Position numbers and translations under genes: made by a program
NCBI GenBank assembly: GCA_049942965.1
Contig: CP188088.1
Coordinates: 330,001 to 362,000, forward strand
Direction: 5' to 3'
Source of the DNA: Candidatus Saccharimonadota bacterium
GTDB lineage: Bacteria > Pseudomonadota > Gammaproteobacteria > Enterobacterales > Enterobacteriaceae
Length of the DNA stretch: 32,000 nucleotides
Shown here: piece after piece, positions 7,756 to 27,562 of the stretch
How the letters are laid out: the number at the start of each line of letters is the position of its first letter
Position numbering within the stretch: position 1 is the first letter of the stretch
The notes under the pieces: generated by a model
What the model saw: the letters and a program-made list of their open reading frames with translations, nothing else
The model's database searches: none
What the model was told of the DNA's origin: nothing

Positions 7756-9333
7756 TTATTTGTATATCATTTTTTTTTTTTTTTTTTTTTTTTTTGATTT
7801 GATTTTTCTAGAAGAAATTTCTTGAAATCTAAATATATCATTCAATATATCTATTATAGCTGTGATTACAGAATTTAAAAAATCAAAAGAAGAACTTGTT
7901 GCAAAAAATTCTCGGTTACAATATCGAACTATAATATCTAATTTAATTATAGAACTATCATTGATCCCATTAGAAACCAAATTACATTTTTCCAAAAAGA
8001 ACTCAAAACCAACTATTTTCTTTATTGTTTTATAAATAGCTGCAATTATTCCATTTCTTGTTTTAGTAATTGAAGTTTTTTTTTCTTTTCCACAGAGTAA
8101 AGTAACTGATGCAACTGATAGCCCATCTGATCCTGATGTAACATTAAAAGAACCTAATTGAAAATATTTGTATTCTATTTCATTAATATTCATAAACATT
8201 AATGATTCTAAATCAGAATCAAATATTCTTCCTTTTTTGTCAGCCAAATTTAAAAAACTTGAATATAATTTATTTAAGTTATATTCTTCTTCTAAATATC
8301 CTAATTTTTTCATTCTATGTTTAACTGCTGCTCTTCCAGAACGTGAAGTTAAATTTAATTGTACTGGTTTCATACCAACTATTTCTGGAGAAATAATTTC
8401 ATAGTTATTTCTATTTTTTAACACTCCGTCTTGATGTACCCCAGAAGAATGAGAATAAGCATTGCTTCCAACAATGGATTTATTAAAAGGAATAGGAATA
8501 TTACAAACATCACTAACTATTTTACTAGTTCTATAAATTTCCTTACAGTTAATATTAGTAAATACATTTAATATATCTCTTCTCGTTTTTATTGCCATAA
8601 TAATTTCTTCTAAAGCAGTATTTCCAGCTCTTTCACCTAAACCATTTATAGTTCCTTCAATCTGTCTTGCACCTGACTGTATAGCAGCAATAGAATTTCC
8701 AACAGCCATTCCTAAATCATTATGACAATGTACTGAAATAATAGCTGATCCAATATTTGGAACACGATTATATAAAGAAGTAATTATTTTTGAAAATTCA
8801 CTAGGAATAGTAAATCCAACTGTATCAGGAATATTAATTGTATTTGCTCCAGCTTTTATTGCTAATTCTACTATTTTACATAAATTATCAATTTCAGTTC
8901 TTCCGGCATCTTCGCAAGAAAATTCAACATCGTCTGTATATTTTTTAGCTTTTTTAATTGAATAAACAGCTAGATCAATAATTTCTGTAAAGCTTTTTTT
9001 TAATTTAGACGTAATATGTAGAGAAGAAGTTCCCAAAAATAAATGTATTCTAAAATTATTCGACTGAGACATAGCTAAAGCAGCTGTTTCAATATCTTTT
9101 TCAACACAACGAGCTAAACCACATATTCTAGAATCTTTTATATTAGATGCAATAATTTCCGTAGACTTAAAATCTCCAGGAGAAGAAACAGGAAAACCTA
9201 CTTCAATAACATCTACACCCATTTTTTCTAAAGAGAAAGCAATTTTCATTTTCTCTTTTGGACTTAAACTAGATTGTAATGATTGTTCTCCATCTCTTAA
9301 TGTTGTATCAAAAATTATAACTCTTTCTTTCAT
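7756..9333 (-). CDS. leuA: 2-isopropylmalate synthase
   Basis: 525-aa ORF. The N-terminus [24 protein letters not shown] is the LeuA signature, and [13 protein letters not shown] is present. The 3' end runs through a 26-nt homopolymer, giving ...[14 protein letters not shown]. Confidence 0.95.
7770..7795 (-). repeat. 26-nt homopolymer (T26 on + strand, A26 in the leuA mRNA sense)
   Basis: Counted directly: t at 7770, then 7771-7790 all t, then 7791-7795 t, followed by g at 7796. Confidence 0.95.
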
Positions 9334-9717
9334 AGTAGATATCTCTTAGTATTATATTAAATTTAAAAAACATATTCGTATACTAAATAAAACTACATTT
9401 AATATAGATTTCTCTTTGAAAGAAAACAAACATAACTATAAATGATATTAACTTTAAATTTAACATAACATTATTCATAAGTACTATGGATGTTTTCTTA
9501 AAAAAATTTCTAATAAGAAAGAAATTTAATTTATTTTAAAAGATCTAAACAAAAATAGTCAATTTTTCACTAATGTAATTAATTTCTTTAAAATTAAATA
9601 AACAATTCGTTCCTTTAAAAAAAACAAAAAACTTTTTGTTTAAAAAAATAAACATCAAAAAATAAAAAATAAATTTATTTTTAAAATAAGAATTTTAAAT
9701 TAGTAAAAACCTACATT

Positions 9718-10335
9718 TTATCTAAAAAAAGATGGAATATCACTTTCATAATCTAATATTTTAGACTCTTTTTTCATTGTTAAATCAATAGCATCCAAAC
9801 CATTTAAAAGAACTTCTTTATTAAATTTACTAATATAAAATTTATATTCTTTTTTATCAATCGAAATACTTTGATTTAATAAATTGACTATACATTTTAT
9901 TCCAATATTATTTTTAACTAAATGAAATAATTCATCAATTATATCTTCTGATAAGACTACTAACAATAAGTTATTGTTAATACTATTGTTATAAAATATG
10001 TCTGCAAAGCTAGAAGAAATAACGACTCGAAAACCATAATCTAAAATAGCCCAAACAGCATGTTCTCTAGATGATCCACATCCAAAATTTTTTCTACTTA
10101 ACAAAATGCTAGAATTAAGATATTCACATTTATTTAAAATGAAATCAAAATTCTTATTTTTTCTATCAGTATCTAAAAACCTCCAATCATGAAATAGATA
10201 TTTACCAAATCCATCTTTAGTTGTTTGTTGTAAAAATTGTTTAGGAATAATAGCATCTGTATCAACATTATCAATATCAAGAGGTAGAACTATTCCAGAA
10301 TGACTTATAAATTTATTATTAATCATGCAATACAT
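9718..10335 (-). CDS. leuD: 3-isopropylmalate dehydratase small subunit
   Basis: 205-aa ORF. ...[27 protein letters not shown] matches E. coli LeuD ([27 protein letters not shown]). By alignment the true start may be the 4th codon (ATG at 10326, MINNKF...). Confidence 0.93.
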   Translation of the reverse strand: [205 protein letters not shown]

Positions 10336-10341
10336 CCTTAC

Positions 10342-11757
10342 TTATAATATTTTATTTATTTTCAATTTTCTAACGTCAACAAATCGTCCATATAAAGCTG
10401 CAGCTGCTGCCATTGCTGGACTAACTAAATGAGTTCTCCCACCTCTTCCTTGACGTCCTTCAAAATTTCTATTACTAGTAGATGCACACCGTTCTCCTTT
10501 AAGTAATTTATCCTCATTCATTCCTAAACACATAGAACAACCAGGTAATCTCCATTCAAATCCAGCATCAATAAAAATTTTATCTAATCCTTCTTTTTCT
10601 GCTTGTATCTTTACTATTTTAGAACCAGGAACAACAATTCCAGTAACTCTTTTACAAATCTTGTTTCCAGCAACAAAACTTGCTGCCAATCTTAAATCTT
10701 CTATTCTAGAATTAGTACAAGAACCGATAAAAACCTTATCAATTAAAATATCTGTTATTTTCATACCTGGTAATAAATCCATATACTTCATCGATTTTTC
10801 TGCAGCAATTCTTTTGTTAAAATTTTTAAAAGAATCTATATTTGGAATTGATTCATTAATTCCAACCACTTGTTCAGGATTTGTACCCCAAGTAACTTGA
10901 GGAGTAAAATCAGAAATATCAAAAAATAATTCACTATCAAACTTGACGTCTACATCTGACTTTAACGTATCCCAAAAAGTTAAGGCACGATTCCATTCCA
11001 AACCTTTCGGAGCATATTTTCTATTATTTAAATAATTATATGTAATTTGATCTGGAGCTATTATGGCTGATTTAGCACCCATTTCAATAGCCATATTACA
11101 TAATGTCATTCTACTTTCCATACTTAAATTAGAAACTACAGATCCAAAAAATTCTACTACATATCCAGTTCCCGCAGAAATACCAATTTTCCCTATGATA
11201 CTTAATATTATATCTTTTGCTGTGATTCCAAAATTTAATTTTCCAGATATTGTAATTTTCATTGTTTTAGAACGAAATTGTTTCAAAGTTTGCGTTGCTA
11301 GTACATGTTCAACTTCAGAAGTTCCTATACCAAAGGACAAAGTCCCAAATGCTCCGTGAGTAGAAGTATGAGAATCACCACATACAACTGTCATTCCTGG
11401 CAATGTTAATCCTTGTTCCGGACCAACAACATGTACAATTCCTTGACGAGAACTATTCAAATCAAATAATTTAATATCAAATTCTTTACAATTTTTTGAT
11501 AACATATCCATTTGAATTTTTGCTAACTTTTCAGTATTAAGAATATTTCTACTTGTAGTAGAAACATTATGGTCCATGGTAGCAAAAGTTTTCTCTGGAC
11601 GTCTTACTGATCTATTTTTATTACGTAAAGATGAAAAAGCTTGTGGGGAAGTAACTTCATGCAACAAATGTAAATCAATATATAAAATAGGAGGTTCATT
11701 ACTAGACTCATAAACTATATGTTTATCATATATTTTTTGATATAAAGTTTTTTTCAT
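10342..11757 (-). CDS. leuC: 3-isopropylmalate dehydratase large subunit
   Basis: 471-aa ORF starting [15 protein letters not shown], with aconitase-family Fe-S ligand regions ([31 protein letters not shown]). Confidence 0.95.
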
Positions 11758-11761
11758 TAAA

Positions 11762-12865
11762 CTATTCCTTATTAATTAAATAATCGGAAATTTTACTACC
11801 CATACTACTAGTACTTAGAAGAACTTCATTAATATCTGTTGTCATAATATCAAAAGTTCTATAACCTTCTTTTAATACGTCAATTACCGAAGATTCAATA
11901 GAATCTGCTATATGTATTAATTTTAAACTATATCGAAATAGCATTGACAGTGATAAAATTAATGCAATTGGATTAGCAATATTTTTACCAGATATATCTG
12001 GTGCAGATCCACCTGCAGGTTCATATAATCCAAAATTTGATTCATTTAAACTAGCAGATGGTAACATTCCAATAGAACCAGTGATCATTCCACATTCATC
12101 CGATAAAATATCTCCAAAAAGATTTGGACATAACATTACGTCAAAATTAATAGGATTTTTTATTATTTGCATACTAGCATTATCTACATACAAATGATTT
12201 AAAGAAACTTCTGGAAAATTTTTAGAAACTTTATTAACTATTTCTCTCCATAAAATTGAAGTTTCTAATACATTAGATTTATCAATAGAAGTAACTTTAC
12301 CTCTCCTTAATTTAGCCATTTTAAAAGCAATATTCGCTACTCTAGCTATTTCATTTTCATGATAGGTAGCTGTATCAACAGCATATTTTTTTTTTAAATT
12401 GTCTATTCTTTGACCCTTCGGGGATCCATAATATATACCACCTATTAATTCCCTAATACATAGAATATCAAACCCATTTTTAACAATTTTTGATTTAAGC
12501 GGGGACAAATGAGATAAACTTGAATATAGTTTAGAAGGTCTAATATTAACAAATAAATTTAATAATTTTCTTAACGGTAATAAAGCAGCCCTTTCTGGTT
12601 GTTGTTCAATAGAAAGATTTTTCCATTTATCTCCTCCTACTGAACCAAACAATACTGCGTCCGACATTAAACAACCATTAATTGTATCTTTTGGTAAAGC
12701 TAATCCAAATTTATCAATAGCAATACCACCAATAAAATATTCTTTAAAATCTAATTTTAACTTAAATTTTTTTTTTACTGATTCTAAAATTTTAATCCCT
12801 TCTTCCATAATTTCAGGACCTATTCCATCACCAGACAAAATGGCTAATTTATACTTTTTACTCAT
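11762..12865 (-). CDS. leuB: 3-isopropylmalate dehydrogenase
   Basis: 367-aa ORF. The N-terminus [14 protein letters not shown] and the motifs [10 protein letters not shown] and [14 protein letters not shown] are typical of LeuB. Confidence 0.95.
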
Positions 12866-12909
12866 TTGCTGTACCTTAATAAAAAAATTAATATATTAAA
12901 ATTAAAAAA

Positions 12910-13710
12910 CTAAAAAAAAAATTTTTTACTAAATTGAGGAAAACCAAAATTAGATGGGTAATTTACATGAACTAAATATAAACCACGAGCTAAAGCTGTA
13001 GGACCAGACAATTTCCTATTTTTACTTCTTAAAATTTTGTTGATCCAAGATATATTTTTTTTCTTTAATCCTACTTCAATCAATGAACCAACTATATTAC
13101 GAACCATCTTATATAAAAATGCATTTGCTTCTATTTCTATTATAACAAAAAAATTTTTCCTAAAAATATTTAATCTAATTATATTACGAAAAGCAGTCTT
13201 CGATTGACAATTCTTGGCTCTAAATCCACTAAAATCATGTTCTCCCAAGAGATATTTTGATCCATTAATCATTAACTCAACATCTAATTCTTTAAAAATA
13301 TGATTTAAAAAATTTGAAAATATACCATTTCTATACGGACCATTATAAATAACATATCGATATAACCTAGATAATGAGCTATATCTAGCATGAAAGTTAA
13401 ATGGAACAGTTTTAATCCATTGAACAGAAATATCAGAAGGTAAAAAAGAGTTTATTCCTAAAACCCAAGAAAAATTTTCACGGTAAGATGTAGTACAAAA
13501 ATGTGCTATTTGACCAATGCTATGAACTCCAGTATCAGTTCTACCTGAACAAATAACAGTAATAGGATGATTAGCAATAATAGAAATTGCTTTTTCTAAT
13601 TTTTCTTGAATAGTAGTATTTATACTTTTTTGTTTTTGCCAACCATTGTAATACGTCCCATCATATTCAATACATAAAGCAAATTTTTTCTCTATTTTTT
13701 TTTTCTGCAT
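12910..13710 (-). CDS. truA: tRNA pseudouridine(38-40) synthase
   Basis: 266-aa ORF. FALCIEYDGTYYNGWQKQ and the catalytic-Asp region CSGRTDTGVHSIGQ are the TruA signatures. Confidence 0.9.
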   Translation of the reverse strand: MQKKKIEKKFALCIEYDGTYYNGWQKQKSINTTIQEKLEKAISIIANHPITVICSGRTDTGVHSIGQIAHFCTTSYRENFSWVLGINSFLPSDISVQWIKTVPFNFHARYSSLSRLYRYVIYNGPYRNGIFSNFLNHIFKELDVELMINGSKYLLGEHDFSGFRAKNCQSKTAFRNIIRLNIFRKNFFVIIEIEANAFLYKMVRNIVGSLIEVGLKKKNISWINKILRSKNRKLSGPTALARGLYLVHVNYPSNFGFPQFSKKFFF

Positions 13711-14612: not shown

Positions 14613-15836
14613 ATGACACTAATTATCCATAAATACTATAAATTCCTAAAAAAAAAAAAAATAAGTAAAAATGCAATTAAAGTATTAATTCGTTTAAAAA
14701 AAACTGGTTATCAATCTTATTTAGTTGGTGGAAGTGTCAGAGATTTAATTTTAGGAAAATTACCAAAAGATTTTGACATTGCTACTAATGCAACCCCTGA
14801 GCAACTAAAAAAAATATTTAAAAATTGTCGAATAATAGGAAGAAGATTTCGAATAGCACATATTATGTTTAAATCTGAATTTATTGAAGTATCTACTTTT
14901 AGAAAAAATCATAATAAAAAATCAACAAATAAAAAAAATAAAAAAATCAAAAAAACAATTAATGGAATGTTACTAAATGATAACATTTTTGGTAATATAG
15001 AAGATGATTATAAAAGAAGAGACATAACCATTAATGCACTTTATTATGATATTAATACTTCAATTATTCGAGATTATGTTGGAGGACTAGAAGATCTAAA
15101 AAAAAAAAAAATAAGACTAATAGGTGATCCTGAAACTAGATATAGAGAAGATCCAATTAGAATATTACGAGTTATTCGATTTGCAGTAAAACTAAAAATG
15201 AAAATTTCAAAAAAAACAGAAGAACCAATAACTAGATTGGCAATTTTATTAAAAAATATTCCATCTTCTCGATTATTTTATGAAATTAGCAAATTAATAC
15301 AAACAGGAGAAGGATATAAAATATATAAAAAATTTAAAAAATATAAATTATTTAATTCAGTTTTCTTTTTTCCAAATATTAAAATTGATCTAAAAACAAA
15401 AAAATTAATTAAAGAAATTAGTATAAAAGCTATTAAACTAATAGATGACAAAGTAAAAAAACAAAAACAAGAAAACGATGAGACAGACTTTTTATTTTCA
15501 TCTATTTTGTGGTACTTTCTAGTAAATACAAAAAAAAAAATACAAAAAGAAAACAAAACTGAAGAAAAAGAATCATTTTTAAATGCTATCGAACAAATTT
15601 TTAAAAATATCATTCCATATTTTAAAATACCTAAACAAATCCTTTCTAATTGCAAAGAAATATGGAAATTACAATGGTTTTTAGAAAATAATTTTAAAAA
15701 AAGTAAAATTATAAAAAAAATAACTAAAAAACAAAAATTTCAAAAGTCCTATAATTTACTAAAAATACGTTCAGAAATAGAAAACAATATACAATTATAT
15801 AAAATTGAAAAAATATGGAAAAAACATAACAAATAA
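14613..15836 (+). CDS. pcnB: Poly(A) polymerase I
   Basis: 407-aa ORF. YLVGGSVRDLILGKLPKDFDIATNATPEQLKKIFKNCRIIGRRFRIAHIMF...IEVSTFR is collinear with E. coli PcnB ([50 protein letters not shown]). It lies downstream of dksA as in E. coli, with gluQ missing between them. Confidence 0.85.
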   Translation: MTLIIHKYYKFLKKKKISKNAIKVLIRLKKTGYQSYLVGGSVRDLILGKLPKDFDIATNATPEQLKKIFKNCRIIGRRFRIAHIMFKSEFIEVSTFRKNHNKKSTNKKNKKIKKTINGMLLNDNIFGNIEDDYKRRDITINALYYDINTSIIRDYVGGLEDLKKKKIRLIGDPETRYREDPIRILRVIRFAVKLKMKISKKTEEPITRLAILLKNIPSSRLFYEISKLIQTGEGYKIYKKFKKYKLFNSVFFFPNIKIDLKTKKLIKEISIKAIKLIDDKVKKQKQENDETDFLFSSILWYFLVNTKKKIQKENKTEEKESFLNAIEQIFKNIIPYFKIPKQILSNCKEIWKLQWFLENNFKKSKIIKKITKKQKFQKSYNLLKIRSEIENNIQLYKIEKIWKKHNK

Positions 15837-25184: not shown

Positions 25185-25376
25185 TTTTAAAATTTTAATT
25201 GATTAATCAAAAGATTATTTAAATAATAAATAGAAAAATTGCATTTGACAACAAAAAAAAAAAAAAATAAAAATAATTCTTGTTATCAAATAATAAGAAA
25301 TTGTTCCAATATGATTAATATGTTATTATTATAACAATATTAATTGTTTAATATTAATTATTTAAAATTTAAAAAA

Positions 25377-25767
25377 GGGGCTGTTTTTGGATTTGACAAA
25401 TTAACTGGAAACTTAAGTGCATGTCGAGGAGTTCGGTTGGCCTCGTAAAAAAACCGATAAAAAATAATAGCAGCAAAAACAAAAAATTACGCTTTAGCAG
25501 CTTAAAAAACTAGTTATAGCCCTTCTTATTTATTCTAATATTTCTCTTTTAGAACAAATAAAAATTCTTTTAAGAAGGATAAATTTAAGAGAATGATTGT
25601 GAATAAATTCTGTAAATTCACATATCATATAAAAAAACAGAATTACTTATTATCTTTGATTCTGTACAAAAATAATAAGGAACAATATATACAGAATAAA
25701 CATGTAGAACTAGAGTTGAAAGTGATTTGGACACGGGTTCGAATCCCGTCAGCTCCAATATTATTTA
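25377..25767 (+). ncRNA. ssrA: tmRNA (SsrA)
   Basis: The 5' end ggggctgtttttggatttgac parallels E. coli GGGGCUGAUUCUGGAUUCGAC. The 3' end ggacacgggttcgaatcccgtcagctcca forms the T-arm and acceptor stem, including the G3:U pair. The tag ORF is gca gca aaa aca aaa aat tac gct tta gca gct taa (25470-25505) = AAKTKNYALAA*. The 3' CCA is not encoded; the next bases are ata. Confidence 0.93.
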
Positions 25768-25880: not shown

Positions 25881-26771
25881 TCAAACTTTTTTAGACCAAT
25901 GTAATTTTTTACTTAAAACGTCAAAATAATTATAATTTTTAGGATGTATTAATTTAATAAAATTATTACTCTTACGAATTAAAACCACATCTTTAGGATC
26001 TATAGATAAAACAACTTGACTATCACAACTAATTTTTAAGAAATTGTTATTGTCATCATCTAAAAATTTTAATAAAACCAAACTTCTATTATTTATTACA
26101 ATAGGTCTAGAAGAAAGAGTTTGAGGAAACATCGGGACTAATAGAATAGCTTCTAATGAAGAATCAAGAATAGGACCTCCGGCTGATAATGAATAACCAG
26201 TAGATCCAGTTAAAGTAGATATAATTAAACCATCTGATCTTTGAGAAAAAGCAAACTTTTCGTCAACATAAACTTCAAAATTTATCATATGTGCTACTTT
26301 TTCAGAATGTAAAACAACTTCATTAACAGCAGTACTCATTCTCAATAAAGAATACTTTCTATATATTTTTACTTCTAATACAAATCTATTTTCTAAAAAA
26401 TATTCTCCAGACAAAATTTTTGATAATTCTTCGAACATATTATTTTGATTTAAATCTGTTAAAAATCCTAATTTTCCTAAATTTATTCCAATTAACTTTA
26501 TTGAATAACGAGATAAAGTTCTAGCTGCACTAAGCATATTCCCATCTCCTCCAATAATTATAGCTAAATCACAATAGGAACCAATTTTTTTAATTGTTGC
26601 TATATTTGGTTTTTTTAAAAAAACATAAGGAACAATTGTATTTTCAATTAAGACTTTATATCCTATTTTTAATAACCAACTATATAAAATTTTATGTATT
26701 GAAAATGCTGTCAAATTTCTAGGACAGCCTAAAATTCCAATACGACTAATTTTTATTTTCTTCATATTCAA
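25881..26771 (-). CDS. nadK: NAD kinase
   Basis: 296-aa ORF with the motifs IIIGGDGNMLSAAR, NLGKLGFLTD and TGSTGYSLSAGGPI. Confidence 0.92.
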   Translation of the reverse strand: MNMKKIKISRIGILGCPRNLTAFSIHKILYSWLLKIGYKVLIENTIVPYVFLKKPNIATIKKIGSYCDLAIIIGGDGNMLSAARTLSRYSIKLIGINLGKLGFLTDLNQNNMFEELSKILSGEYFLENRFVLEVKIYRKYSLLRMSTAVNEVVLHSEKVAHMINFEVYVDEKFAFSQRSDGLIISTLTGSTGYSLSAGGPILDSSLEAILLVPMFPQTLSSRPIVINNRSLVLLKFLDDDNNNFLKISCDSQVVLSIDPKDVVLIRKSNNFIKLIHPKNYNYFDVLSKKLHWSKKV

Positions 26772-26806: not shown

Positions 26807-26836
26807 CTTGAAAGAACAATTGTTGTTCTCCATAAT
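26807..26836 (+). promoter_or_regulatory. Sigma32 (heat-shock)-type promoter candidate for grpE
   Basis: cttgaaa (26807-26813), a 14-nt spacer, then ctccataat (26828-26836). The E. coli sigma32 consensus is CTTGAAA-N13-15-CCCCATNT. It lies 26 nt upstream of the grpE ATG, and the SD AAGAGGAGA is at 26846-26854. E. coli grpE is sigma32-dependent. Confidence 0.5.
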
Positions 26837-26861
26837 AAAAATATTAAGAGGAGAAAATTAA

Positions 26862-27562
26862 ATGAATAAAGATAATACATTCAATGTAAATAAAAATATA
26901 AAAAATGACAAAATCACAGAAAAAAAAAAAAAAAAAATAATATTAAAAATGATATTAATTTTAAATTAAATAAAAAAAATGATTCTATAAAATCAAAATT
27001 TAAAGAAAACGATAAAACTAAAATAGAAAAAGAAAATAATAAAATCAAACAAAAAAATCAATCTAAAAATTCTGAAATTTTTGAAAAACCAGAAATTAAT
27101 TTAAAAAAAGAAATTAACAATTTAAAAAAAAAAATTTTTAATATTCAATTAAGAACTCAAGCAAATATAGAAAATTTAAAAAAAGATACACAAGAAAAAA
27201 TAAAAATAATAAAAAAACAAAAAAAAGAAGAAATTATTATTAATTTAATTCCTATTATTGATAATTTTGAAAAAATTGAAAATACACTACAAAAAAATAA
27301 AACTAAACGAAACGAAAAAATCGTTGAAGGAATATCTTTAACATTATTTAATTTAAAAAATAATTTAAAAAAAATTGGTTTAAAATCAATCAAACTACAA
27401 GATAAAATTTTTAATCCTAATTTTCACGAAACTAAAGAAAAACTAAAACTTAATAAAAATAATAAATACAAAATTGAATCAATTATAAAAAAAGGATATA
27501 TTTATAATAATAAAATATTAAGAAAATTAATTGTTTCAATTTCTAATTCTAAAAAACAATAA
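26862..27562 (+). pseudogene. grpE: grpE (nucleotide exchange factor for DnaK) interrupted by a frameshift inside an A18 tract; may still be expressed through slippage
   Basis: The ATG at 26862 with a strong SD opens MNKDNTFNVNKNIKNDKITEKKKKKIILKMILILN*, with the stop at 26967-26969. The GrpE-homologous sequence is in the +2 frame, open from 26909 to the stop at 27560-27562. It reads ...IQLRTQANIENLKKDTQEKIKII...LIPIIDNFEKIE...VEGISLTLFNLKNNLKKIGLKSI...IFNPNFHE...IIKKGYIYNNKILRKLIVSISNSKKQ*. That frame contains no ATG, GTG or TTG, which is why the ORF track does not list it. The two frames overlap at the A18 tract (26920-26937). Confidence 0.85.
26920..26937 (+). repeat. A18 homopolymer at the grpE frame junction
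   Basis: Counted directly: a at 26920, ten a at 26921-26930, seven a at 26931-26937, then t at 26938. Confidence 0.95.

What the first reader, a model, noticed from the sequence alone, without database searches (positions are those of the whole stretch)
26862..27562. grpE is split into two frames exactly at an 18-nt poly(A) tract but keeps its expression signals
What the sequence shows:
- A well-placed ATG (26862) follows an AAGAGGAGA SD and a sigma32-like promoter (CTTGAAA-N14-CTCCATAAT).
- That frame terminates after 35 codons, at 26967-26969.
- All recognisable GrpE homology lies in the +2 frame, which is open from 26909 to 27562 and contains no ATG, GTG or TTG.
- The two frames can only be joined inside A18 (26920-26937). 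An mRNA with 19 A's (+1) or 16 A's (-2) would encode a continuous protein of about 233 aa.

Established knowledge: Buchnera and Blochmannia genes frameshifted in long poly(A) tracts can be partly rescued by transcriptional slippage (Tamas et al., PNAS 2008, cited from memory).

Inference: this is either such a slippage-dependent gene, a very young pseudogene (some Buchnera carry a second grpE copy elsewhere), or a homopolymer sequencing or assembly error.
Basis: partly seen in the sequence, partly recalled or inferred. Interest (0 to 1): 0.7.

Follow-up and report, generated by a model that had tools for sequence, protein, structure and literature searches.

The report
Buchnera grpE broken at poly(A) run
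The chaperone gene grpE of an aphid symbiont is out of frame by one base inside a run of 18 A's in this assembly, but every relative is in frame and the gene shows no decay, so this is most likely a run-length miscount or a tolerated, slippage-corrected frameshift, not a dead gene.

Summary
The ATG at 26862 opens a 35-codon frame. All GrpE homology lies in another frame (26909-27562) that has no ATG, GTG, TTG or CTG. The two frames meet at A18 (26920-26937).

The window is Buchnera aphidicola of Tetraneura akinire (CP188088). That genome is a Nanopore/miniasm assembly polished with 75-nt Illumina reads.

- **Relatives are in frame.** Four related sequences keep the same promoter, SD and ATG, and read straight through the homologous run: T. 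ulmi A13, a second T. akinire lineage A15-C, T. sorini A19.
- **No sign of decay.** There is no excess amino-acid change on the window's lineage (6 versus 8), no further lesion, and the expression signals are identical.
- **The count of 18 is not corroborated.** A k-mer assembly of the polishing Illumina run stops at exactly 16 A's from both sides. Reads with 16 A's (in frame) therefore coexist with longer ones.

My ranking:
- Miscounted or length-heterogeneous run in a live gene: about 0.5.
- Real A18 rescued by +1 transcriptional slippage or -1 ribosomal sliding: about 0.3.
- Young pseudogene: about 0.1.

This is a known kind of event (Tamas 2008) and of modest interest.

The parts
26807..26836 (+). 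Promoter-like element. CTTGAAA (26807-26813), a 14-nt spacer containing the palindrome GAACAA-TTG-TTGTTC, then CTCCATAAT (26828-26836). It fits both the sigma-32 consensus and sigma-70 (TTGAAA-17-CATAAT).
   Evidence: Sequence. Best sigma-70-type match in the region, 10 of 12. TTGAAA-N12-17-CCAT occurs 5 times in the window against 1.7 expected. Identical in T. sorini and in L006; nearly so in T. ulmi.
26846..26854 (+). Shine-Dalgarno sequence AAGAGGAGA. The GGAG core ends 8 nt before the ATG.
   Evidence: Identical in T. sorini and L006.
26862..26919 (+). grpE 5' segment: ATG plus codons 1-19 and the first base of codon 20 (MNKDNTFNVNKNIKNDKIT-E). This is the N-terminal tail, read in the ATG frame.
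   Evidence: The same ATG opens intact ORFs of 236 aa (T. sorini), 232 aa (L006) and 232 aa (T. ulmi). Codons 1-20 give dN 0.115 and dS 0.60 against T. sorini.
26920..26937 (+). A18 run, an oligo-lysine stretch, where the reading frame is lost. 19 or 16 A's would be in frame.
   Evidence: Homologous runs: A19 in T. sorini, A15-C in L006/L008/L010/L014, A13 in T. ulmi, all in frame. Logan contigs of the Illumina run SRR33632138 end at 16 A's on both sides.
26967..26969 (+). TAA that ends the 35-codon ATG frame as assembled.
26938..27562 (+). grpE 3' segment in the GrpE frame (phase of 26864; the frame is open from 26909), ending at the TAA at 27560-27562. The Pfam GrpE domain covers about 27059-27544.
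27044..27562 (+). CDS as annotated in GenBank (XRY30934.1, 172 aa). It starts at an ATC codon with no Shine-Dalgarno sequence, and is probably an annotation work-around for the frame break.
   Evidence: P0001 begins MKQKNQ where the window has IKQKNQ.
25881..26771 (-). nadK, the divergent neighbour of grpE. Context only.
   Evidence: Pfam NAD_kinase. 100% identical protein in the NCBI T. akinire record.

Best explanation
This is the single, functional grpE of Buchnera aphidicola (Tetraneura akinire).

Its disordered N-terminal tail contains an oligo-lysine stretch encoded by a hypermutable poly(A) run. That run is 13 to 19 nt long across Tetraneura symbionts.

The one-base frame break in this assembly most likely does not reflect a fixed inactivating mutation. 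Either the run length was mis-called (true modal length 19 or 16), or the symbiont population and library are heterogeneous in length and include in-frame genomes.

- **Shown:** the identity of the gene, the position of the break, the in-frame state of all relatives, the absence of decay, and the presence of A16 together with longer molecules in the Illumina library.
- **Inferred:** that the modal genomic length is in frame.
For: 1. **Assembly method.** The source genome CP188088 was assembled from Nanopore reads (R10.3, Guppy 4.2.3) with miniasm. It was corrected with Racon and polished three times with Pilon using 75-nt NextSeq reads. Such a method is weakest at very long homopolymers.
2. 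**Independent k-mer evidence.** Logan contigs from that same Illumina run (SRR33632138) are 100% identical to the window but stop inside the run. L009 ends with 16 A's. L001 starts with 16 A's followed by TAAT. A de Bruijn simulation shows that flanking unitigs end at the shortest length variant present. Molecules with exactly 16 A's (in frame, 232 aa) therefore coexist with longer ones.
3. **Parsimony.** A second T. akinire lineage, 98.9% identical (L006/L014 = GCA_035718965.1; L008; L010), reads G-A15-C-TAAT in frame (232 aa, P0005). One C-to-A change would give A16-TAAT with no indel. The distance from G to ATT is 20 nt in L006 and in T. sorini, but 22 nt in the window.
4. **Relatives are intact.** T. 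sorini (A19, 236 aa) and T. ulmi (A13, 232 aa) both read through from the same ATG.
5. **No decay.**
   - Promoter, SD and ATG are identical to T. sorini.
   - With T. ulmi as outgroup there are 6 akinire-specific and 8 sorini-specific amino-acid changes.
   - dN/dS is 0.41, within the range of the neighbours (0.10-0.42).
   - The tract is the only coding-frame-changing indel in 17 kb against the Illumina-only MAG.
6. **No second copy seen.** Only one GrpE per Tetraneura or Eriosoma genome appeared in the protein search. This suggests the copy is needed.
Against: - The same Illumina reads were used for polishing and still yielded 18, so 18 may be the true mode.
- All coding runs of 10-14 nt agree in length with the independent MAG. 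The intergenic A15 is confirmed by a contig from another run, L020. The assembly is therefore accurate at somewhat shorter runs.
- No contig or protein in the searched collections carries the A16 or A19 version of this lineage.
- I could not see the reads, so the length histogram is unknown.
Confidence: 0.5

Rival explanations
1. The genomic A18 is real and fixed, and GrpE is still made. RNA polymerase slips on the T18 template and adds one A (or drops two), and/or ribosomes slide back one base on the iterated AAA codons. A fraction of the product is then the 233-aa (or 232-aa) protein. This would be the poly(A) rescue described for Buchnera and Blochmannia.
For: - The break is exactly in a run far longer than those known to slip.
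- A review (PMC5009743) summarises 12-50% 'corrected' transcripts at endosymbiont poly(A) runs. PMC3017870 treats single indels in such runs as potentially intact genes and cites about 30% full-length transcripts.
- In Buchnera, transcription insertions are single bases in A/T runs and rise exponentially with run length (PMC5574713). A +1 insertion is the change needed here.
- Ribosomes slide on iterated AAA lysine codons (PMC4363877). A -1 slide gives the same protein.
- The gene keeps its signals and shows no decay. Polishing left 18.
Against: - The frameshift is not shared by any relative. There is therefore no evidence that the out-of-frame state has been maintained over time.
- The count is not independently confirmed.
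- PMC5574713 found no case of a transcription error restoring a reading frame in Buchnera LSR1.
- There is no stimulatory RNA structure downstream (z = -0.91) and no Rfam element. Any rescue would be unprogrammed.
Confidence: 0.3
2. The A18 is real and grpE is a very recent pseudogene with no useful product. DnaK would work without its exchange factor or with an unseen second copy.
For: - As assembled there is no in-frame start for the GrpE domain.
- Indels in A/T runs are the usual first step of gene loss in these symbionts (PMC3017870).
- The genome paper lists 29 pseudogenes.
Against: - There is no second lesion and no rate acceleration: 6 versus 8 lineage-specific changes.
- The expression signals are untouched.
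- grpE is intact in all relatives examined.
- No second GrpE was seen for Tetraneura genomes (weak test).
- From general knowledge, grpE is essential in E. coli and kept in reduced Buchnera genomes.
Confidence: 0.1
3. A truncated GrpE is translated from an internal non-canonical start. An example is the ATC at 27044 used in the GenBank annotation (172 aa), which would still include the whole Pfam domain.
For: P0001/XRY30934.1 is annotated this way. The Pfam match starts downstream of it.
Against: - There is no ATG, GTG, TTG or CTG in the frame, and no GGAG-type Shine-Dalgarno sequence before 27044.
- The strong SD and conserved ATG lie 180 nt upstream.
- Relatives translate from the upstream ATG, with constraint on codons 1-20.
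Confidence: 0.03

Closest known systems
Poly(A)-tract frameshifts rescued by transcriptional slippage in Buchnera and Blochmannia (Tamas et al. 2008, as summarised in PMC5009743 and PMC3017870)
   Same: An AT-rich obligate insect endosymbiont, a single-base frame error inside a long coding poly(A) run, and an otherwise undegraded gene with intact signals.
   Different: Here the genomic count is not verified, no cDNA or protein data exist, and the frameshift is absent from every relative. The run (18) is much longer than the 9-12 nt runs discussed in those papers. Even in-frame alleles should therefore give mixed transcripts.
Frameshifts in homopolymers conserved between Blochmannia species (e.g. 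dnaX in B. vafer and B. floridanus, PMC3017870)
   Same: An essential information-processing or housekeeping gene interrupted in a poly(A) run, with no rate acceleration.
   Different: Those frameshifts are shared between species, which argues for maintenance. This one is confined to a single assembly.
Poly(A) tracks / iterated AAA lysine codons as translation attenuators with ribosome sliding (PMC4363877, PMC4552401)
   Same: Five to six consecutive AAA codons early in an ORF, conserved as a run of 13-19 A's across the Tetraneura symbionts examined.
   Different: No evidence here that the run is selected for attenuation. In a 22% GC genome AAA is simply the default lysine codon.
Programmed transcriptional realignment or ribosomal frameshifting (Thermus dnaX A9, Shigella mxiE, IS elements; reviewed in PMC5009743)
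   Same: A slippery homopolymer at the frame junction.
   Different: The programmed cases conserve the two-frame arrangement. Here relatives are single-frame, and no stimulator was found.
Homopolymer length errors in Nanopore assemblies polished with short reads
   Same: The assembly method, a run longer than any validated one in the window, and a short-read graph that breaks at the run.
   Different: Runs up to 14-15 nt in the same assembly are correct.

Membership tests
GrpE nucleotide exchange factor (PF01025) | Significant match to the GrpE domain profile | tested here: met
   E=7.6e-22, 78.2 bits against a cut-off of 25.8, covering profile positions 14-164 of 165.
GrpE nucleotide exchange factor (PF01025) | Orthologous position and close orthologues annotated as GrpE | tested here: met
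   The order nadK - grpE - ung - ahpC is the same in T. sorini, T. ulmi and a second T. akinire lineage. Hits are named GrpE.
Slippage-rescued poly(A) frameshift gene (Tamas 2008 type) | Frame error lies within a coding A/T run of 9 nt or more in an otherwise intact gene | tested here: met
   A18 at 26920-26937. The length difference to relatives is confined to 26919-26942, and there is no other lesion.
Slippage-rescued poly(A) frameshift gene (Tamas 2008 type) | Out-of-frame genomic run length verified independently of the assembly | tested here: inconclusive
   Contigs from the Illumina run stop at 16 A's on both sides, so several lengths are present. No contig traverses the run.
Slippage-rescued poly(A) frameshift gene (Tamas 2008 type) | mRNA pool contains in-frame length variants and full-length protein is made | not testable with these tools
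   No RNA or proteome data were reachable.
Slippage-rescued poly(A) frameshift gene (Tamas 2008 type) | No relaxed selection despite the frameshift | tested here: met
   6 versus 8 lineage-specific amino-acid changes, and dN/dS 0.41. This is equally expected if the gene is simply intact.
Evolutionarily maintained (conserved) frameshift | The same frameshift shared by related lineages | tested here: not met
   T. sorini A19, the L006 lineage A15-C and T. ulmi A13 are all in frame.
Programmed ribosomal frameshift site | Slippery site plus a conserved stimulator (downstream structure or upstream SD-like element), with a two-frame arrangement conserved | tested here: not met
   A slippery A-run is present. 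The downstream fold is not better than shuffles (z = -0.91), there is no Rfam hit, and relatives are single-frame.
Decaying pseudogene | Additional disabling mutations, loss of expression signals, or accelerated non-synonymous change | tested here: not met
Sigma-32 heat-shock promoter | CTTGAAA, then 13-15 nt, then CCCCATNT, specific to sigma-32 | tested here: inconclusive
   The match is good (CTTGAAA-N14-CTCCATAAT) and conserved. The same bases also make the best sigma-70 match. PMC3571970 warns that sigma-32 predictions in Buchnera are unreliable.

The most novel reading that the evidence does not exclude
The out-of-frame A18 is real. GrpE, the DnaK cofactor, is made in this Buchnera lineage only from slipped transcripts or sliding ribosomes. 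The 13-19-nt poly(A) run kept at the same place in all Tetraneura symbionts examined would then act as a hypermutable dial on GrpE dosage at the DNA, RNA and translation levels.
Probability: 0.12. Interest if true: 0.55.

Novelty: new member of a known kind. Interest (0 to 1): 0.3.

Why it matters
If the frameshift is real, a core chaperone cofactor of an obligate symbiont would depend on polymerase or ribosome infidelity at an unusually long (18-nt) run. That would extend the Tamas-type rescue to the heat-shock machinery and give a clean test locus, with in-frame alleles A13, A15 and A19 in sister lineages.

If it is a miscount, the lesson is practical.
- Very long A/T runs in Nanopore-plus-short-read symbiont genomes create false pseudogenes.
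- They also push annotation pipelines into improbable starts. Examples here are the ATC start of the 172-aa GenBank protein and the ATA start of the 197-aa T. ulmi protein.

Either way, the correct gene model is the ATG at 26862 through the run to 27562.

Tried and rejected
- **Exact-product look-ups that found nothing.** These were the 296-aa NadK (TTG start), P0001 and P0002. The ATG-start NadK and the T. ulmi NadK did work.
- **Exact-sequence look-up of repaired GrpE.** The A16, A19 and A22 versions and the 35-aa ORF are all absent from the collection. Look-ups of contig-edge products returned only the known contig.
It returned only T. sorini plus two unrelated genomes.
- **Ancestral-start idea, rejected.** I considered that the ancestral start might be the ATG at 26979, because the T. 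ulmi annotation starts nearby. T. ulmi DNA shows the upstream ATG and an in-frame 232-aa ORF, and its annotated start is an ATA codon.
- **Internal non-canonical start, rejected.** The ATC at 27044 has no Shine-Dalgarno sequence.
- **Programmed frameshift stimulator.** None was found.
- **Second grpE copy.** Not seen in two protein searches. Those searches are word-limited, and the whole genome was not available to me.
- **bioRxiv 2025.04.02.646943** holds only 16S and qPCR data, no RNA-seq.

Full report
**What is in the sequence**

- CTTGAAA (26807-26813), a 14-nt spacer and CTCCATAAT (26828-26836) precede AAGAGGAGA (26846-26854) and an ATG at 26862.
- That frame runs for 35 codons and stops at 26967-26969.
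- Positions 26920-26937 are 18 A's.
- The frame in phase with 26864 is open from 26909 to the TAA at 27560-27562. It has no ATG, GTG, TTG or CTG among its 218 codons.
- A protein joined across the run matches Pfam GrpE at E=7.6e-22. The match lies wholly downstream of the run.
- One extra A gives a 233-aa ORF and two fewer give 232 aa.
- The neighbours are nadK (divergent), ung and ahpC. A tmRNA gene lies at 25377-25757.

**Source of the window**

The GrpE, NadK and Ung proteins identify the window as Buchnera aphidicola of the gall aphid Tetraneura akinire, a 530,863-bp genome.

The genome announcement (PMC12243488) gives accession CP188088 and the method:
- Nanopore R10.3 reads base-called with Guppy 4.2.3.
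- Miniasm assembly and Racon correction.
- Three rounds of Pilon with 75-nt paired NextSeq reads (Illumina run SRR33632138, Nanopore run SRR32628560).
- 29 pseudogenes are reported.

GenBank annotates GrpE as a 172-aa protein (XRY30934.1). Its first residue corresponds to the ATC codon at 27044. That start has no Shine-Dalgarno sequence and looks like a work-around for the frame break.

**Relatives**

| Source | Locus | Run | grpE ORF |
|---|---|---|---|
| T. sorini (CP188087) | L003 | G-A19-C | 236 aa, in frame |
| Second T. akinire-type lineage, 98.9% identical (GCA_035718965.1 and Logan contigs of SRR7186519 and SRR7186528) | L006/L014, L008, L010 | G-A15-C-TAAT | 232 aa, in frame (P0005) |
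| T. ulmi (OZ060366.1) | L024 | A13 | 232 aa, in frame |

- T. sorini has an identical promoter, SD and ATG.
- T. ulmi has the same promoter architecture and ATG. Its 197-aa public annotation starts at an ATA codon and is too short.
- The ATG at 26862 is therefore the real start, and the N-terminal tail is translated.
- A poly(A)/oligo-lysine run has been kept at this spot across the Tetraneura symbionts examined.
- Only the window is out of frame.
- The length difference maps to 26919-26942. The distance from the G before the run to the conserved ATT is 20 nt in L006 and T. sorini but 22 nt in the window.
- A single C-to-A change in the L006 allele would give A16-TAAT, in frame, with no indel.

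**Is the gene decaying?**

No.
- Against T. sorini, grpE has dN/dS 0.41. The neighbours are nadK 0.10, ung 0.22 and ahpC 0.42. The codons upstream of the run are constrained.
- With T. ulmi as outgroup there are 6 akinire-specific and 8 sorini-specific amino-acid changes.
- Against the second T. akinire lineage, grpE differs by only a handful of substitutions.
- Over 17 kb, the tract is the only indel that changes a coding frame.

**Is 18 the true count?**

This cannot be settled without the reads, but three things bear on it.
1. *Accuracy at shorter runs.* All coding runs of 10-14 nt have the same length in the window and in the Illumina-only MAG. The intergenic A15 is confirmed by a contig from another run. 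The assembly is reliable up to about 15.
2. *The short-read graph breaks at the run.* Logan contigs assembled from the polishing run itself are 100% identical to the window but do not cross the run. L009 ends with 16 A's, and L001 begins with 16 A's followed by TAAT. A small de Bruijn simulation with k=31 shows that flanking unitigs end with the shortest length variant present, and that a single length gives one unbroken contig. The library therefore holds molecules with exactly 16 A's and molecules with more. The cause could be PCR stutter or true heterogeneity.
3. *Nearby in-frame lengths.* Both 16 and 19 lie within two bases of the assembled value.

**Mechanism if A18 is real**

The GrpE frame is reached by one extra A in the mRNA, or equivalently by a -1 ribosomal slip.
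- Transcription insertions in Buchnera are mostly single bases in A/T runs, and they rise exponentially with run length (PMC5574713).
- Endosymbiont poly(A) frameshifts yield 12-50% corrected transcripts according to the review of Tamas et al. (PMC5009743; see also PMC3017870).
- Ribosomes slide on iterated AAA codons (PMC4363877).
- No downstream structure or known RNA element suggests a programmed event.
- At 13-19 A's even the in-frame alleles should give mixed transcripts. The difference between 18 and 19 is therefore quantitative (inference).

**Verdict**

- Most likely (about 0.5): a live grpE whose run length is mis-called or heterogeneous.
- Next (about 0.3): a real A18 that is leaky through slippage.
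- A young dead gene: about 0.1.
- An internal non-canonical start: about 0.03.

The event belongs to a known class, the instance is unverified, and interest is modest.

**Other context**

GrpE N-terminal tails are hypervariable in related Buchnera. E. harunire has a 12-residue unit repeated about nine times, and another Buchnera has KENVITDE repeated eight times. This fits a disordered tail that tolerates length change.

Noticed in passing
window 7770-7795 (minus strand, leuA 7756-9333): A run of 26 A's on the coding strand encodes K8 just before the last four codons of leuA (…[18 protein letters not shown]). It is the longest homopolymer in the window, and its length is as unverifiable as the grpE run.
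   Followed up: partly
window 14648-14661 and 15098-15111 (pcnB 14613-15836): There are two in-frame A14 runs in the poly(A) polymerase gene. The second has the same length in the independent Illumina MAG (L014). The first lies outside the part of L014 that aligns to the window.
   Followed up: partly
window 25253-25267: This intergenic A15 run is A19 in the second T. akinire lineage and only A5 in T. sorini. Logan contigs of SRR33632138 also break here (L009 starts at 25253, L016 ends at 25246). A contig from SRR25158233 (L020) crosses it with 15 A's.
   Followed up: partly
window 25668 and 25679 (tmRNA gene 25377-25757): The window has one extra A and one extra G within 12 nt of ssrA, compared with both the second T. 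akinire lineage and T. sorini. The Illumina-derived contig L009 is identical to the window here, so these look like real lineage-specific changes in the tmRNA 3' half.
   Followed up: no
window 26814-26828: The promoter spacer is a near-perfect palindrome, GAACAA-TTG-TTGTTC. It is identical in T. sorini and the L006 lineage. The outer GAAC…GTTC is kept in T. ulmi. It could be an operator-like site or chance.
   Followed up: no
window 7756-13710: On the minus strand the chromosomal leucine genes lie in the order truA, leuB, leuC, leuD, a 385-nt gap, then leuA, next to secA. This is permuted relative to the usual leuABCD. From memory, some Tetraneura Buchnera carry leu genes on a plasmid. The announcement reports no plasmid.
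   Followed up: no
L024 3204-3902 (T. ulmi) and window 27044: Public annotations of grpE in T. ulmi (197 aa, ATA start) and T. akinire (172 aa, ATC start) both begin at non-canonical codons well downstream of the conserved SD and ATG. The gene models are probably too short.
   Followed up: yes
P0006 (Buchnera of Eriosoma harunire) and P0008: The GrpE N-terminal tails carry long tandem peptide repeats: NQHNVTDEQKPI about nine times in a 307-aa protein, and KENVITDE eight times. The GrpE tail appears to be a hotspot for repeat expansion in Buchnera.
   Followed up: no
window 27219: The Logan contig built from the Nanopore run (L002) ends at an A7-C-A8 stretch inside grpE. This is another low-complexity site where k-mer assemblies break.
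   Followed up: no
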